Part shown: piece after piece, positions 9,344-16,226 of the stretch | Numbering within the stretch: position 1 is the stretch's first letter | How the letters are laid out: each line of letters starts with the position of its first letter | Source: a virus | Lineage: Duplodnaviria; Heunggongvirae; Uroviricota; Caudoviricetes | DNA: 31,064 nt | Strand: one strand, 5' to 3' | IMG/VR virus record: IMGVR_UViG_2737471828_000009 | Span: 1 to 31,064 of that record | Position numbers and translations under genes: made by a program | The notes under the pieces: model-generated | Told to the model about the DNA's origin: nothing | Seen by the model: only the letters and a program-made list of their open reading frames with translations | Database searches by the model: none

Positions 9344-9996
9344 TGAGTAATAAATATTGCCAGGCGCTGGTGGAACTGCGGAACAAACCAGCCCATGAAC
9401 TGAAGGACGTGGGCGATCAGTGGCGCACGCCGGACAACATTTTCTGGGGAATTAACACCCTGTTTGGCCCGTTTGTTCTGGATCTGTTCACTGACGGTGA
9501 TAACGCCAAATGTGCTGCGTATTACACGGCGGAAGACAACGCGCTGGCGCATGACTGGTCAGAACGTCTTGCGGAGCTTAAAGGTGCTGCCTTTGGTAAT
9601 CCCCCATACAGCCGCGCCAGTCAGCATGAGGGGCAATACATCACCGGCATGCGTTACATCATGAAGCATGCCAGTGCCATGCGTGATAAGGGCGGGCGCT
9701 ATGTTTTCCTGATCAAAGCTGCCACCAGCGAAGTTTGGTGGCCGGAAGATGCAGACCATATTGCTTTTATTCGCGGGCGTATTGGTTTTGAACTGCCTGC
9801 CTGGTTTATCCCGAAGGATGAGAAGCAGGTGCCGACAGGAGCGTTCTTCGCTGGTGCTATTGCTGTTTTCGACAAGACCTGGAAGGGACCGGCAATCAGC
9901 TACATCGGGCGCGATGAACTTGAGGCATGTGGTGAGGCGTTTCTGGCGCAGGTTCGCCAGCAGGCAGAAAAACTTGTCAGGGAGATGGCGGCATGA
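9343..9996 (+). CDS. dam: Phage Dam-family DNA N6-adenine methyltransferase
   Basis: NPPY catalytic motif (FGNPPYS) and conserved WRTPDNIFW... N-terminus; start ATG overlaps the upstream stop (TAATG), preceded by GGGGG. Confidence 0.8.
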   Translation: MSNKYCQALVELRNKPAHELKDVGDQWRTPDNIFWGINTLFGPFVLDLFTDGDNAKCAAYYTAEDNALAHDWSERLAELKGAAFGNPPYSRASQHEGQYITGMRYIMKHASAMRDKGGRYVFLIKAATSEVWWPEDADHIAFIRGRIGFELPAWFIPKDEKQVPTGAFFAGAIAVFDKTWKGPAISYIGRDELEACGEAFLAQVRQQAEKLVREMAA

Positions 9997-12686: not shown

Positions 12687-12704
12687 TTTTTTCGGAGAAA
12701 GGTG

Positions 12705-13067
12705 ATGCGTGATATTCAGATGGTTCTGGATCGTTGGGGAGCATGGGCGGCGAGTGATAGTTCAGGAGTAGATTATTCTCCTATAGCTGCTGGGTTTAAA
12801 GGGCTTCTTCCCTATACAAGCAAAACACGTCAGGCTTGTTCAGATAGTGATGCATTAATTATTGAAGGTTGTCTTGCACGTCTAAAGCAAAAAAGACCTG
12901 ATGAGCATTCGCTTCTTGTGGCCCATTACCTATACGGTATCTCTAAAAGAAAGCTCGCTAAAGCTCGCAAAAAGGATGAGAAAATAATACGCATTGAGAT
13001 ACAGATGGCTGAGGGATTTATAGAAGGTTGTCTAGCTATTCTAAATGTTAGCTTAGATATGGATTAA
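12705..13067 (+). CDS. Q: Late-gene antiterminator Q (QuuD/QuuQ-like small Q family)
   Basis: About 120-aa product in the position of Q, upstream of the lysis genes; family assignment from memory of the K-12 cryptic-prophage Q proteins; ATG 12705 preceded by GGAGA. Confidence 0.65.
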   Translation: MRDIQMVLDRWGAWAASDSSGVDYSPIAAGFKGLLPYTSKTRQACSDSDALIIEGCLARLKQKRPDEHSLLVAHYLYGISKRKLAKARKKDEKIIRIEIQMAEGFIEGCLAILNVSLDMD

Positions 13068-13082
13068 TATCTTGGTTTGGAT

Positions 13083-13106
13083 AAGCAGGTGTGCTTGCAC
13101 CTGCTT
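13083..13106. terminator. Perfect hairpin between convergent Q and membrane-protein genes
   Basis: AAGCAGGTG-tgcttg-CACCTGCTT (9-bp perfect stem) followed on the plus strand by AATATTATAT; likely limits read-through from Q into the antisense of the cargo cassette. Confidence 0.4.
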
Positions 13107-13110
13107 AATA

Positions 13111-13557
13111 TTATATGTGGGGTAATATCCAGTTTATTTTCCTCCAGGTACTTGCAAATGAAACTATTGATACGATCAGGGTCGAGAAACCATATAAGGT
13201 TAGGGCGAAATCAAGTCTTACAGAGGTAATGGTGATTTTTTCATTTATAAACATTGCTATCAGCGGGAAAATACATGCTAATATTAAGGTAACTCCCGTA
13301 GATAACAGGTTATGAATAATTTTAGGTAAAATCTTGTTTTGTTTTAAAGCAAAAATAATTCCATCAGTACTTGAACTTGCAGAACTGAAGATGGAAATAG
13401 CGGCCAATACAAAACCAAACAAAATGCCTGCCACCGTAGATAACACTCCGGCTGTACTTAAGATATCAGAGTGAGCCATAGGCGCTAGGTATTTCCCAAG
13501 CACCCAAGCTAACAGCCCACTGATAACTATGTTAATTAAAACTTTAATAAGCATAAT
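13111..13557 (-). CDS. Small integral membrane protein with four predicted TM helices (RexB-like architecture)
   Basis: About 148-150 aa; four hydrophobic segments (approximately residues 3-23, 34-59, 81-105, 117-137); AT-rich; 14-nt gap after the upstream gene; the start may be the third Met (AAGG at 6 nt spacing). Confidence 0.6.
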   Translation of the reverse strand: MMLIKVLINIVISGLLAWVLGKYLAPMAHSDILSTAGVLSTVAGILFGFVLAAISIFSSASSSTDGIIFALKQNKILPKIIHNLLSTGVTLILACIFPLIAMFINEKITITSVRLDFALTLYGFSTLIVSIVSFASTWRKINWILPHI

Positions 13558-13577
13558 CATCATCCTTAAAAATAAGA

Positions 13578-14510
13578 TCAGATTTCATATTGCTTTAAAT
13601 ACTGACCATGTTCAATTTTAGCACTGATCAAGGCAGTACGCACATCTGTTTCTTTTGCGTAGCCATCTTTTGTGTTAATGTTTTTTTCACTGATCAGAAC
13701 TTGATTGAGAAGACTCCTTGAATGAGTATTTTTAGGTTCAGTGACATTAGCTTTACGTAATAAGTGAGGAACTTTTTCTATTAATTCCTTTATTCCACTT
13801 TTTACTTCATCACTGAGATAACCACGGATTAATTTACGTTGCGATGCTCTACCTCTAAGTGATAGTTTTAAATGCGAACCGCCCATCCCAGCCATCATTT
13901 CAATCATACTTTTGGAAAATGAATTCGAAAGGTCATAATCCGTTGCGCTAAAATTACGTGGAGCGGCGAGTGTAATTTCACAGCTACGTAAAGTGCTTCC
14001 TGTTTCAAGTAGTTCTTTTACACTTTCTTTTTTCCAAATTGCCTCAAACGCTACAGGTTTGTTTTCTTCAGAAAAATTGAATAAAAGAAATGCTAAATCG
14101 GAAACTTTAGGTCCTAAATGATTTTGAGATAAAACAAGAATGTCTTTCTTATAGTAGTAAATAAAATAAGTGCGTTCGACTATATATTTTTTATCATCTA
14201 ACGGAATATTGTGCTCATCCCAATTTTCATCACCAATATAAGGTAAGTGGAAACCATCACGAGAGCATGATAGATAACCAAAATAGAACTCCGCCTGTGC
14301 GTCTTTTTCTAAGAATACAACCTTTAATTTTTTCTTATCAAACTCAGCGGTATAAGAATTTTGCGAAGGTGTAACAATGGTTGTATACATGTTGTCAAAT
14401 GCAAGTTGTGCATTTGATGTAGTTGACTTCGTTCCTGAGGAGCTTTGGAAGAAACCGATACGCATTTTTTTTTGTTTAGTTAGTGGCGCGGAAGTGGCTG
14501 TAGTAGTCAT
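13578..14510 (-). CDS. Soluble 310-aa protein, first gene of the counter-oriented two-gene cassette (candidate abortive-infection sensor, RexA-like architecture)
   Basis: ATG 14510 preceded by AAAGGG at about 8 nt; AT-rich; forms a tight operon with the downstream membrane protein; no catalytic motif recognised. Confidence 0.6.
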   Translation of the reverse strand: MTTTATSAPLTKQKKMRIGFFQSSSGTKSTTSNAQLAFDNMYTTIVTPSQNSYTAEFDKKKLKVVFLEKDAQAEFYFGYLSCSRDGFHLPYIGDENWDEHNIPLDDKKYIVERTYFIYYYKKDILVLSQNHLGPKVSDLAFLLFNFSEENKPVAFEAIWKKESVKELLETGSTLRSCEITLAAPRNFSATDYDLSNSFSKSMIEMMAGMGGSHLKLSLRGRASQRKLIRGYLSDEVKSGIKELIEKVPHLLRKANVTEPKNTHSRSLLNQVLISEKNINTKDGYAKETDVRTALISAKIEHGQYLKQYEI

Positions 14511-14810
14511 TAAAATTACCCTTTATTATCCTTTTGAATCAATGGGTTGTGATTTGTTAATGATCCTGGGTTCGTTGCATATGCATAATCTATCAAAAAA
14601 AACTTACGCGGTCCGCATTTTCTCGTTTACTGTGTTAAGAGTGGTTACTTCGCCACACAGCTTAAACCCGCCGTCGAGCGGTTTTTTTGTACCTGTAAAC
14701 CTGGTGCAGTACAGTAAACACGCTGGTGGTCGTGAATACTGACTTTTTATCTTGCTGGCTTTTTAGACAAGAGTTATTGGTATGTCATGTTAACCAGAAG
14801 GGAAAAAGAC

Positions 14811-15014
14811 ATGCTAAAACAGCAAGATATGACAGAAACCGCCGCCGCAGTCCTTCATTTCTTACCTGCTGACAAGTGGGTAACGCCACGCATGATGACG
14901 AGAACTACCGGAGTAAGCGAAGCCCGGTGCCAGTTAATACTGACTCAGTTAGTTCTGGCGGGTCTGGCGAAGGATAACGGCGGGTACGGGAATAAATTCA
15001 GACGCTGCCAGTAA
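14811..15014 (+). CDS. Small HTH/winged-helix-like protein upstream of the methyltransferase
   Basis: 67 aa from the ATG at 14811 (preceded by AAGGGA); HTH-like segment TRTTGVSEARCQLILTQLVLAG. Confidence 0.45.
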   Translation: MLKQQDMTETAAAVLHFLPADKWVTPRMMTRTTGVSEARCQLILTQLVLAGLAKDNGGYGNKFRRCQ

Positions 15015-15164: not shown

Positions 15165-16226
15165 ATGAAAAATACTGTAAAAATAAACAGTGTTGATTTA
15201 ATCAACGCTGATTGCCTGCATTTTATTCAGTCCCTGCCTGATGATTCCATTGACCTGATTGTTACCGATCCGCCGTACTTCAAGGTGAAACCCAACGGCT
15301 GGGACAATCAGTGGAAAGGGGACGAAGATTACCTTAAGTGGCTGGACCACTGTCTGGCCCAGTTCTGGCGGGTGTTAAAGCCTGCCGGAAGCCTTTACCT
15401 GTTCTGTGGGCATCGCCTGGCATCTGATATTGAGATCATGATGCGTGAACGTTTCAACGTGCTTAACCATATCATCTGGGCGAAGCCGTCCGGACGTTGG
15501 AATGGGTGTAATAAAGAAAGTCTGCGCGCATATTTTCCTGCCACAGAGCGCGTTCTGTTTGCTGAACATTACCAGGGGCCATATCGCGGCAAAAGTGACG
15601 GCTATGCGGCAAAAGAAAGGGAACTCAAACAGCATATAATGGCACCGCTGATATCGTATTTCAGGGATGCTCGTGCCGAACTGGGTATAACGGCAAAACA
15701 AATTGCCGAAGTCACAGGTAAGAAAAATATGGTTTCCCACTGGTTTGGTGCCAGTCAGTGGCAGTTGCCGAATGAGGCTGACTATCGGAAGTTACAGGCA
15801 CTTTTTTCCCGTATAGCGGCAGAGAAGTTTCAGGAACAACAGCTGGAACAACCACACCACCAACTGGTGGCATCTTATGATTCACTGAATCGCAAATATT
15901 CTGAATTGCTGGATGAGTTTAAATCTCTCCGTCGCTATTTCTCCGTATCAGTCTCCGTGCCTTATACCGATGTCTGGATGCATAAACCCGTTCAGTTCTA
16001 CCCGGGCAAACATCCGTGTGAGAAACCGGCGGATATGCTCAGGCAAATAATCAATGCCAGTAGTCGACCTGGCGATCTGGTTGCTGATTTCTTTATGGGA
16101 TCCGGTTCCACAATAAAAGCAGCAATGGCGCTGGGGCGTCGGGCATTAGGTGTTGAGCTTGAGACAGAACGGTTCAATAAGACCATTCAGGAAATCAGTA
16201 TGTTATCAGCAAATACAATTTTGTGA
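15165..16226 (+). CDS. Orphan DNA methyltransferase (beta-class N6-adenine/N4-cytosine type)
   Basis: N-terminal catalytic motif IV DPPY (LIVTDPPYF) and C-terminal AdoMet motif I (FFMGSGST); no restriction endonuclease gene nearby. Confidence 0.8.
   Translation: MKNTVKINSVDLINADCLHFIQSLPDDSIDLIVTDPPYFKVKPNGWDNQWKGDEDYLKWLDHCLAQFWRVLKPAGSLYLFCGHRLASDIEIMMRERFNVLNHIIWAKPSGRWNGCNKESLRAYFPATERVLFAEHYQGPYRGKSDGYAAKERELKQHIMAPLISYFRDARAELGITAKQIAEVTGKKNMVSHWFGASQWQLPNEADYRKLQALFSRIAAEKFQEQQLEQPHHQLVASYDSLNRKYSELLDEFKSLRRYFSVSVSVPYTDVWMHKPVQFYPGKHPCEKPADMLRQIINASSRPGDLVADFFMGSGSTIKAAMALGRRALGVELETERFNKTIQEISMLSANTIL

What the first reader, a model, noticed from the sequence alone, without database searches (positions are those of the whole stretch)
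13111..14510. Counter-oriented AT-rich two-gene cassette between Q and the lysis genes: candidate RexA/RexB-like abortive-infection module
Two tightly linked minus-strand genes (14-nt gap) sit in the classic lambdoid cargo hotspot between Q and the holin, opposite to all flanking phage genes and far more AT-rich than the backbone. The first encodes a roughly 310-aa soluble protein with no recognisable catalytic motif; the second a roughly 150-aa protein with four predicted transmembrane helices. Size, gene order and four-helix topology mirror lambda RexA (279 aa) and RexB (144 aa, four TM), where a cytoplasmic sensor activates a membrane ion channel to abort superinfection. The membrane protein also carries an LSxxAGxxxxxxxAA segment reminiscent of RexB as I recall it, though that is weak evidence. 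Kiwa-like, CBASS-like or entirely novel modules are alternatives. Placement behind a perfect hairpin after Q suggests lysogen-expressed cargo that is silenced by antisense late transcription.
Basis: partly seen in the sequence, partly recalled or inferred. Interest (0 to 1): 0.85.

Follow-up and report, generated by a model that had tools for sequence, protein, structure and literature searches.

The report
Distant RexAB-type phage-exclusion gene pair
Two leftward genes inserted just after the Q gene of an E. coli lambda-like prophage are very distant relatives of phage lambda's RexA/RexB exclusion system, missed by standard defence-gene detectors, and most likely make an infected cell shut down so that a second phage cannot multiply.

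Summary
Two minus-strand genes lie at 13578-14510 (A, 310 aa) and 13111-13554 (B, 147 aa from the best start; 150 aa as the longest ORF). They are AT-rich (32-37% GC against 45-58% in the flanks) and converge on Q across a perfect hairpin.

B is a four-helix membrane protein. A broadened B profile aligns with RexB over TM2 and the central loop (P 7e-5; 0 of 300 shuffles).

The A-B pair is conserved from Enterobacterales to Halomonas, Vibrio, Pseudomonas and Zetaproteobacteria. In several of these it sits directly after a CI-like repressor, as rexAB does.

Pfam and PADLOC RexA/RexB models do not detect either window protein.

Function is inferred, not shown. The idea of silencing by antisense late transcription is not supported, because the cassette lies upstream of the probable late-promoter element.

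This is a new member of a known kind. It may be the same family as the recently described Sucellos or P. putida RexAB systems.

The parts
13578..14510 (-). Gene A: 310-aa cytoplasmic protein, Pfam DUF6731, RexA-like fold (the proposed sensor)
13111..13554 (-). Gene B: 147-aa four-TM membrane protein, RexB-like (the proposed pore/effector). The alternative upstream ATG at 13563 gives 150 aa.
   Evidence: ORF. Start chosen from homologue lengths and Shine-Dalgarno spacing. Four TM helices. Broadened profile against the RexB family: hhalign score 33.4, P 6.7e-5, with 0 of 300 shuffles reaching it. phrog_8552.
13082..13107 (.). Perfect 10-bp-stem hairpin between the convergent stop codons of Q and B; probable terminator for convergent transcription
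   Evidence: Each cassette variant, and DLP12 nmpC, has its own unrelated hairpin at the same position.
14511..14560 (-). Short AT-rich leader of gene A: Shine-Dalgarno AAGGG (14523-14519) and a weak sigma-70-like match (-35 ATCACA 14553-14548, -10 GATAAT 14530-14525). Putative own promoter, not verified.
   Evidence: The promoter-like match count in the region is not above shuffled expectation (8 against 6.3 +/- 2.6), so this is a weak inference.
14562..14690 (+). Right boundary (context): conserved noncoding element with a -10-like xxTAAT, the palindrome CGCGGTCCGC and an intrinsic terminator GCCGTCGAGCGG+T7. Probable late promoter and early terminator (PR'/tR' analogue).
   Evidence: Invariant across prophages carrying cassette alleles only 47-62% identical. 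The 48-nt core is identical in L001, L003-L007 and cdtI and has 1 mismatch in K-12 DLP12 between nmpC and essD.
12702..13067 (+). Left boundary (context): antiterminator Q gene (121 aa, PF06530/QuuD type)

Best explanation
The cassette is a highly diverged RexAB-type two-component phage-exclusion (abortive-infection) module carried as counter-oriented cargo between Q and the late promoter of a lambdoid prophage.

Proposed mechanism:
1. In the lysogen the two genes are transcribed leftward as one operon, independently of the phage late operon.
2. A, a cytoplasmic protein with the RexA fold (split globular domain plus a beta-sheet dimerisation domain, probably a DNA-binding dimer), senses a cue made early in infection by another phage. 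The cue may be a phage protein or a DNA-protein replication or recombination intermediate.
3. Activated A acts on B, a four-TM inner-membrane protein with N and C termini and a conserved basic central loop (about residues 59-77; L70 and K71 invariant) facing the cytoplasm.
4. B, as an oligomer, makes the membrane leaky. Membrane potential and ATP fall, growth stops, and the infecting phage cannot complete its cycle.

Shown here: the genes, their conservation as a pair, the RexA-like fold of A, and remote profile-level homology of A to RexA and of B to RexB.

Inferred by analogy with lambda RexAB, P. putida RexABpp and Sucellos: expression in the lysogen, sensing, A-to-B activation, pore formation, and the exclusion phenotype.
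For: **Fold of A.**
- These are the same structural neighbours the RexA structure paper reports for RexA itself (PMC11077077).

**Sequence links.**
- Broad A profile against a 7-member RexA family: score 33.9, P 3.4e-4. The alignment starts at the N-termini (A 17-185 with RexA 2-163) and keeps the GF[FY], L-DDE-L and GPxxSxL motifs in register.
- 0 of 80 block-shuffled controls reach that score (maximum 22.5).
- Broad B profile against the RexB family: score 33.4, P 6.7e-5, over the TM1 end, TM2 and the central loop.
- 0 of 300 shuffles reach that score (maximum 25.4).
- A distant B-family member gives a collinear sub-threshold Pfam RexB hit (E 0.069).

**Architecture.**
- Same gene order, sizes (310/147 aa against 279/144 aa), tight linkage and four-TM topology as rexA-rexB.

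**Pair conservation and context.**
- The pair is conserved in Enterobacterales, a Vibrio tectivirus-like element, Pseudomonas phage AUS531phi, and Halomonas, Neptuniibacter, Amphritea and Mariprofundaceae genomes.
- In AUS531phi and several Halomonas-type loci the pair lies directly downstream of a CI-like or HTH gene, the rexAB position.

**Cargo features.**
- AT-rich, counter-oriented, in a slot that holds nmpC in DLP12.

**Experimental precedent.**
- RexAB-like pairs invisible to the Pfam RexA/RexB models do defend against phages: RexABpp and Sucellos.
Against: - No experiment or expression data exists for this cassette.
- Neither window protein matches the Pfam or PADLOC RexA/RexB models, although lambda's proteins do.
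- The narrow B profile shows nothing against RexB. The significant alignment covers only 64 columns at 64% hhalign probability. The A-RexA probability is only 38%.
- Lambda RexB was not among the top 50 Foldseek matches of the B model in BFVD. PDB fold matches for B are generic helical bundles.
- The DNA-binding residues R219/K221 of RexA cannot be placed confidently in A.
- The cassette is not in the immunity region, and its own promoter is only a weak consensus match.
- Even for lambda, how RexA is triggered and how it activates RexB remain unknown.
Confidence: 0.62

Rival explanations
1. The pair is RexAB-homologous, but its main role is regulating the prophage's own life cycle rather than excluding other phages. 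For example, A might bind DNA to bias the lysis-lysogeny switch, as RexA does independently of RexB, and B might modulate host proteolysis or membrane state at induction.
For: [quoted passage not shown] A shares its fold. The cassette sits beside the Q gene, which controls late expression.
Against: The strict A-B pairing is kept in unrelated mobile elements that have different or no lambda-type switches: Mu-like head regions, an integrase-adjacent slot of a tectivirus-like element, and the Q slot. Divergent alleles (47-62% identity) replace each other at one slot, which is typical of defence cargo under diversifying selection. The same slot holds a porin in DLP12.
Confidence: 0.12
2. Inverted logic as in mycobacteriophage Butters gp30/gp31. 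The cytoplasmic A protein would be the toxic or antiviral effector, and membrane protein B would only sequester it until infection releases it.
For: The Butters Rex-like system works this way according to PMC12894663. A is the more conserved, larger protein with many invariant charged residues.
Against: B's TM2 and central loop are the most strongly conserved segments of the whole module, as expected for an effector pore. In lambda, Sbash, CarolAnn, RexABpp and Sucellos the membrane protein is required for defence. A has no recognisable catalytic domain.
Confidence: 0.1
3. A different two-gene membrane-associated defence system, either Kiwa-like (KwaA/KwaB) or an entirely new type that merely resembles Rex in size and topology.
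For: Kiwa also combines a four-TM protein with a roughly 300-aa cytoplasmic DNA-binding protein (established knowledge). No defence HMM matches the window proteins.
Confidence: 0.04
4. Lysogenic-conversion cargo unrelated to phage defence, such as a membrane function that alters host physiology or virulence.
For: The same slot carries a porin gene in DLP12. bor lies nearby. Function is untested.
Against: Homology of both proteins to an exclusion system. The pair occurs in marine and environmental bacteria and their phages, where host-specific virulence roles are unlikely.
Confidence: 0.06

Closest known systems
Phage lambda RexA/RexB exclusion system (Pfam PF15969/PF15968; PDB 8TWQ for RexA)
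   Same: - Two-gene operon: a cytoplasmic protein of about 280-310 aa followed within 15-23 nt by a four-TM protein of about 145 aa.
- Collinear profile alignments of A with RexA and of B with RexB.
- Prophage-borne.
- Distant relatives of the cassette sit directly after a CI-like repressor.
   Different: - About 12% identity.
- Not detected by the Pfam or PADLOC Rex models.
- In this prophage it lies between Q and the late promoter, not in the immunity region, and is not co-transcribed with the repressor.
- It has its own hairpin terminator.
- A is about 30 aa longer.
- Function and trigger are untested.
P. putida prophage P1 RexABpp (PP_5643/PP_5644; Sci Rep 2026, PMC12894663)
   Same: - Shown to need both genes for defence and to cause RexB-dependent membrane damage.
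- The DUF6731 relative in Pseudomonas phage AUS531phi has the same position downstream of a CI-like repressor.
   Different: Whether RexApp is itself a DUF6731 protein could not be tested, because no sequence was available. The host is different, and so is the slot in the window prophage.
Sucellos (SclA/SclB) of the Vibrio cholerae superintegron (bioRxiv 10.1101/2024.07.02.601686)
   Same: - Two genes described as structurally RexAB-like but not matched by the Pfam Rex domains.
- Both genes are required for defence.
- SclB is predicted to form a membrane pore.
- Reported to occur often in prophages, notably of Salmonella.
- The A/B family also has Vibrio and Salmonella members.
   Different: Identity of the families is untested because the Sucellos sequences were not obtainable here. 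Sucellos is an integron cassette, whereas this module is in a lambdoid Q-slot.
Actinobacteriophage Rex-like systems (Sbash gp30/gp31, CarolAnn gp44/gp43; Butters gp30/gp31)
   Same: - A cytoplasmic protein plus a four-TM protein, expressed from the prophage, with a proposed depolarisation mechanism.
- Second-best Foldseek match of the B model in BFVD is a 165-aa Sbash protein, the length of gp31.
- In Sbash too the pair is not next to the repressor.
   Different: There is no profile similarity between A/B and Sbash gp30/gp31. By sequence the window pair is closer to lambda RexAB than these accepted Rex-like systems are. Butters uses inverted roles.
Cargo slot between Q and the late promoter in DLP12-type lambdoid prophages (nmpC in K-12 DLP12)
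   Same: Counter-oriented, AT-rich cargo bounded on the left by the Q stop codon plus a hairpin, and on the right by the same conserved 48-nt element and terminator.
   Different: The cargo in DLP12 is a porin gene, not a defence pair.

Membership tests
Lambda RexA family (Pfam PF15969, PADLOC PDLC02339) | Significant match to the family HMM | tested here: not met
   There is no RexA hit for A in Pfam or PADLOC, even at E<=1. Lambda RexA scores 327 and 364 bits as a control.
Lambda RexA family (fold level) | RexA fold: split globular domain plus beta-sheet dimerisation domain, with RdgC, IML3 and CHL4 as structural neighbours | tested here: met
   [not shown]
Lambda RexA family (remote homology) | Collinear profile-profile alignment above controls | tested here: met
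   hhalign score 33.9, P 3.4e-4, 152 columns, A 17-185 aligned with RexA 2-163. 0 of 80 block shuffles reach the score (maximum 22.5). The hhalign probability is only 38%.
Lambda RexA family | DNA-binding basic residues equivalent to R219/K221; dimer formation | tested here: inconclusive
   The low-confidence part of the alignment pairs RexA 213-221 with A 251-257 (R252/K253). An LSLRGR motif at A 216-221 resembles RexA ISLRAK but is aligned elsewhere. No multimer or DNA model could be run.
Lambda RexB family (Pfam PF15968, PADLOC PDLC02340) | Significant match to the family HMM | tested here: not met
   There is no RexB hit for B. A distant B-family member (L021) gives a sub-threshold collinear hit, E 0.069.
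Lambda RexB family (remote homology) | Profile-profile alignment above controls; about 145 aa with four TM helices and a conserved cytoplasmic central loop | tested here: met
   The narrow profile gives nothing. The broadened profile gives score 33.4, P 6.7e-5, 64 columns, and 0 of 300 shuffles reach it. Four TM helices are confirmed.
RexAB operon organisation | Sensor gene upstream and membrane gene immediately downstream, on the same strand | tested here: met
   The A stop is at 13578 and the B start at 13554 or 13563. In lambda, rexA is followed after 15 nt by rexB.
RexAB operon organisation | Located in the immunity region downstream of cI and co-transcribed with it | tested here: not met
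   In the window prophage the pair is about 5 kb from the repressor, between Q and the late genes. The feature is met in distant relatives: AUS531phi and L020, L021, L024, L025.
RexAB-type defence (functional class) | Both genes needed for phage exclusion; membrane depolarisation or growth arrest on triggering | not testable with these tools
   This needs plaque assays and membrane-potential measurements.
Sucellos (SclAB) / RexABpp | Sequence membership in the same family | not testable with these tools
   The sequences could not be retrieved. Only primer-derived termini of PP_5643/5644 were available, and they match no held protein.
Pfam DUF6731 (PF20505) | Score above the gathering threshold | tested here: met
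   A scores 43 bits against a cut-off of 27, over residues 12-273. AUS531phi, Halomonas and Parathalassolituus relatives also pass. RefSeq names the protein 'DUF6731 family protein'.
Kiwa (KwaA/KwaB) | KwaA and KwaB (DUF4868) HMM matches; membrane gene first | tested here: not met
   [not shown]
MotA/ExbB/TolQ proton channels | Pfam PF01618 match | tested here: not met
   B gives E 0.12 and 12.5 bits against a cut-off of 22.9. The hit does not recur in nine other B- and RexB-family proteins.

The most novel reading that the evidence does not exclude
DUF6731 plus its four-TM partner may be a large, unrecognised branch of the Rex superfamily. It may well include Sucellos and P. putida RexABpp. 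It travels as a self-contained cargo module among very different mobile elements: the lambdoid Q slot, the CI-adjacent slot, Mu-like head regions, a tectivirus-like element and integron cassettes. The intermediate sequences found here give the first sequence-level bridge to RexB itself. If so, Rex-type exclusion is far more widespread than the five or so described systems. The E. coli allele would then offer a genetically tractable system for the 70-year-old question of what triggers Rex and how the A protein opens the B pore.
Probability: 0.45. Interest if true: 0.65.

Novelty: new member of a known kind. Interest (0 to 1): 0.5.

Why it matters
Rex was the first abortive-infection system described, yet its trigger and gating mechanism are still unknown. 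Only about five Rex-like systems have been studied (PMC12894663).

- This work assigns a Pfam 'domain of unknown function' (DUF6731) and an unnamed membrane-protein family to the Rex type.
- Standard defence annotation (PADLOC, Pfam) misses them.
- It adds an E. coli member, present in about 2% of complete genomes, that can be tested with existing coliphage panels.
- It documents a second cargo (besides the nmpC porin) in the slot between Q and the late promoter.
- The conserved positions across very divergent A and B families point to residues for mutagenesis: B TM2 GxLFGF, central-loop L70/K71, and the A motifs GF[FY] and GPxxSxL.

Tried and rejected
- **Direct HMM scans of A and B.** PADLOC, NCBIfam, Pfam and PHROGs gave only DUF6731 and function-unknown PHROGs. 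The Lart1 and MotA_ExbB hits are far below cut-off and do not recur.
- **PDB sequence searches.** Profiles of A and B found nothing meaningful.
- **Narrow profiles against RexA/RexB.** hhalign against single lambda sequences or the RexB family was insignificant. The motif alone is rejected as evidence.
- **Sbash gp30/gp31 against the A/B and RexA/RexB profiles.** No similarity.
- **Obtaining PP_5643/PP_5644 and SclA/SclB sequences.**
  - Supplements held only primers or genome lists.
  - A 25-mer scan of viral contigs found nothing.
  - Cluster look-ups of intermediate relatives gave Aeromonas and Pseudoalteromonas, not V. cholerae.
  - A plasmid tblastn found 3 irrelevant records.
- **Genome scan with a very diverse alignment.** The narrower scan returned only 11 loci because only one peptide pattern was usable.
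- **A wrong accession recalled from memory for Sbash.** KP027195 is phage Cosmo. It was corrected through an operator sequence.
- **Kiwa, CBASS and a chance-ORF reading.** These were considered and rejected, as set out under the rival explanations.
Full report
**1. Observation**

The window carries two minus-strand ORFs exactly where stated: A at 13578-14510 (310 aa) and B at 13111-13563 (150 aa as the longest ORF).
- Almost all B homologues are 147-149 aa.
- RefSeq annotates the 147-aa form in an identical prophage.
- The AAGGA ribosome-binding site is best spaced for the ATG at 13554.
- B is therefore most likely 147 aa, and the A-B gap 23 nt rather than 14.

GC content drops to 0.32-0.375 over the cassette, against 0.45-0.58 on both sides. 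All neighbouring genes run rightward: KilA-N, DUF968, Q (12702-13067), then a small ORF, a DNA methyltransferase and the essD/rrrD/rzpD lysis genes.

A perfect 10-bp-stem hairpin (13082-13107) lies between the convergent stop codons of Q and B.

The host element is a lambdoid prophage integrated at the Thr-tRNA gene next to proA.

**2. The genes are real and form a conserved pair**

A has 64 homologue clusters (43-99% identity) and B has 97, all in Enterobacterales and on the same contigs.

A 47%-identical allele (P0030) and a 62%-identical allele (phage cdtI orf54/orf53) occupy the same slot in other lambdoid prophages. They have the same counter-orientation and a 147-149-aa partner.

A profile search of 1.84 billion representative proteins finds 193 clusters, nearly all single-domain proteins of 280-320 aa.

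More distant members still carry the partner gene immediately downstream, often overlapping:
- a Vibrio tectivirus-like element, where the pair lies next to the integrase;
- Pseudomonas phage AUS531phi;
- nine complete loci from Halomonas, Vreelandella, Acidiferrobacterales, Mariprofundaceae, Parathalassolituus, Neptuniibacter and Amphritea.

The partners share B's TM2 and central-loop motifs.

This exact allele is in 18 of 5426 complete E. coli genomes. DNA-detectable relatives are in 96 genomes, all chromosomal.

**3. What A is**

Sequence libraries give only Pfam DUF6731 (43 bits against a cut-off of 27) and a function-unknown PHROG. PADLOC and NCBIfam give nothing useful. No paper in the library mentions DUF6731 or the RefSeq accessions.

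The AlphaFold model built from a 37-sequence alignment is confident (pLDDT 83, pTM 0.71).
- The following hits are CHL4, CENP-N, IML3, RdgC and a Corynebacterium NDP-sugar epimerase.
- That is the same set of structural neighbours the RexA structure paper reports for RexA itself (PMC11077077).
- The order of secondary-structure elements fits RexA's split architecture as described in that paper: an N-terminal beta-rich domain, a central four-strand plus helices domain, and C-terminal helices.

At sequence level, the narrow profile against lambda RexA alone was insignificant, but it already aligned GPKVSDLAFLL with GPTTSDLTDFL.
- A broad family profile (Neff 6.6) against a seven-member RexA family collected here gives hhalign score 33.9 and P 3.4e-4.
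- The alignment covers 152 columns from the very N-termini.
- None of 80 block-shuffled RexA alignments exceeds 22.5.

I conclude that A is a remote homologue of RexA.

**4. What B is**

The B model has four long helices plus a short amphipathic helix in the central loop (pLDDT 82).

By the positive-inside rule (my inference from the sequence), the N and C termini and the basic central loop face the cytoplasm. This is the topology proposed for RexB and Sbash gp31 (PMC6426596).

TM2 (AGVLSTVSGILFGFVLAAISIFSS) is the most conserved segment, and L70/K71 in the central loop are invariant.

- With the narrow enterobacterial B profile the similarity is not significant: hhalign probability 0.3, and my profile alignment finds that register at only z 1.3.
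- After adding the partners of distant A-family genes (Neff 4.2), the comparison with a 16-member RexB family rises to score 33.4, P 6.7e-5, probability 64%. It covers the TM1 end, TM2 and the central loop in the same register.
- None of 150 column shuffles (maximum 20.4) or 150 block shuffles (maximum 25.4) reaches that score.
- Independently, one distant B-family protein gives a collinear sub-threshold hit to Pfam RexB (E 0.069).

Fold searches add little.
- PDB matches are generic helical bundles.
- In BFVD the second-best match is a 165-aa protein of mycobacteriophage Sbash, the length of gp31, the RexB-like component of the Sbash 30/31 defence.
- Lambda RexB itself is not in the top 50 BFVD matches.

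B is therefore probably, but less securely, a remote homologue of RexB.

**5. Genomic anatomy and regulation**

To the right of the cassette lies a noncoding element (about 14562-14690) that is invariant among prophages whose cassettes are only 47-62% identical.
- It has a -10-like xxTAAT, a palindrome CGCGGTCCGC, a 48-nt core and an intrinsic terminator.
- The core is identical in all related loci fetched.
- It occurs with one mismatch in K-12 DLP12, between the start of the counter-oriented porin gene nmpC and essD.
- In P0030-type prophages the holin follows this element directly.

The simplest reading (inference) is that this is the Q-dependent late promoter with its early terminator. The cargo slot then lies between Q and that promoter. 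It holds nmpC in DLP12 and the A/B pair here.

Late transcription would therefore not run antisense through the cassette. What converges on it is rightward delayed-early transcription through Q. Every cargo variant carries its own, unrelated hairpin exactly at that collision point.

The cassette's own promoter is uncertain. There is one weak -35/-10 match just upstream of A and a good Shine-Dalgarno sequence.

**6. Mechanism**

The best-supported explanation is a RexAB-type exclusion module.
1. A is a cytoplasmic, probably dimeric and DNA-binding sensor.
2. On infection by another phage, A activates B.
3. B is a membrane pore-former, and its opening collapses membrane potential and stops growth.

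Only the anatomy, conservation, fold and remote homology are shown here. The functional steps are taken from other systems:
- lambda RexAB;
- the experimentally studied P. putida RexABpp, in which both genes are needed, RexA over-expression causes RexB-dependent membrane damage, and RexApp binds DNA (PMC12894663);
- V. cholerae Sucellos, in which both genes are needed and infection triggers cell death.

Rivals are an own-life-cycle regulatory role, Butters-type inverted roles, a Kiwa-like or unrelated system, and non-defence cargo. I weigh these in the rival section, and none fits the data as well.

**7. Comparison with what is known**

The pair works like RexAB and is homologous to it at superfamily level. 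It fails the family-level tests (the Pfam and PADLOC RexA/RexB HMMs), while lambda's proteins pass them.

It also differs from lambda in location: it is not in the immunity region. Distant DUF6731 pairs, however, do sit right after CI-like repressors.

By sequence it is closer to lambda RexAB than the accepted actinophage Rex-like systems are.

Two recently described systems, RexABpp and Sucellos, were likewise identified as RexAB-like only by structure or HHpred. Sucellos is said to be frequent in Salmonella prophages, and the B family has Salmonella members. Whether either is the same family as DUF6731/B could not be tested, because their sequences were not retrievable with these tools.

**8. 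Verdict**
- The regulatory suggestion (antisense silencing) is not supported.
- This is a new member of a known kind of system rather than a new kind.

Interest is moderate. It gives a function-level assignment to DUF6731 and to an unnamed membrane family. It shows a blind spot of current defence finders. It also offers a tractable E. coli Rex-type system. However, RexAB-like pairs of this cryptic sort have already been reported in 2024-2026, and nothing here is experimentally tested.

Noticed in passing
window 14634-14690 (+); L032 (K-12 DLP12) 4724-4771: A 48-nt noncoding core followed by an intrinsic terminator is identical in all related prophages fetched and has 1 mismatch in DLP12 between nmpC and essD. 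It is probably the late-promoter transcript and tR' analogue for QuuD-type Q proteins. It marks the right edge of a cargo slot that holds nmpC in DLP12.
   Followed up: partly
window 13082-13107; L003 about 9413-9449; L011 about 4886-4910; L032 about 1850-1890: Each cargo variant has a different hairpin sequence at the same place between the convergent Q and cargo stop codons. The position is conserved but the sequence is unrelated.
   Followed up: partly
window 14395-14417: A perfect 9-bp inverted repeat, TCAAATGCA-N5-TGCATTTGA, lies inside the 5' coding part of gene A. Its significance is unknown.
   Followed up: no
window 14787-15014 and 15165-16226 (+): A small ORF (67-75 aa) and a DNA methyltransferase lie between the conserved late-promoter-like element and the holin. 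Both are also present in phage cdtI but absent from P0030-type prophages, where the holin follows directly. This looks like a second, co-oriented cargo position.
   Followed up: no
L009 (Vibrio phage 10N.286.54.F4_PE001) 1389-2896: A 14.6-kb tectivirus-like (Vinavirales) integrated element carries the A/B pair directly after its integrase. The module therefore also rides on non-tailed phage elements.
   Followed up: partly
L026-L028 (Parathalassolituus, Neptuniibacter, Amphritea) about 3989-5350: In these genomes the pair is inserted among genes that look like Mu-type head-morphogenesis genes, rather than near a repressor. I judged this from the N-terminal sequences only.
   Followed up: no
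L012 (Sodalis sp. TME1) 3001-3444: A RexB homologue (46% identity to lambda RexB) has no adjacent RexA gene called. This is an orphan RexB.
   Followed up: no
L005 10209-11437: In one P0030-type prophage an IS transposase replaces the DUF968 gene just upstream of Q.
   Followed up: no
protein search output: Several RexB homologues are named 'biopolymer transporter ExbB' by NCBI. Lambda RexB and three homologues show no Pfam MotA_ExbB match even at E<=10, so the name looks like legacy annotation.
   Followed up: yes
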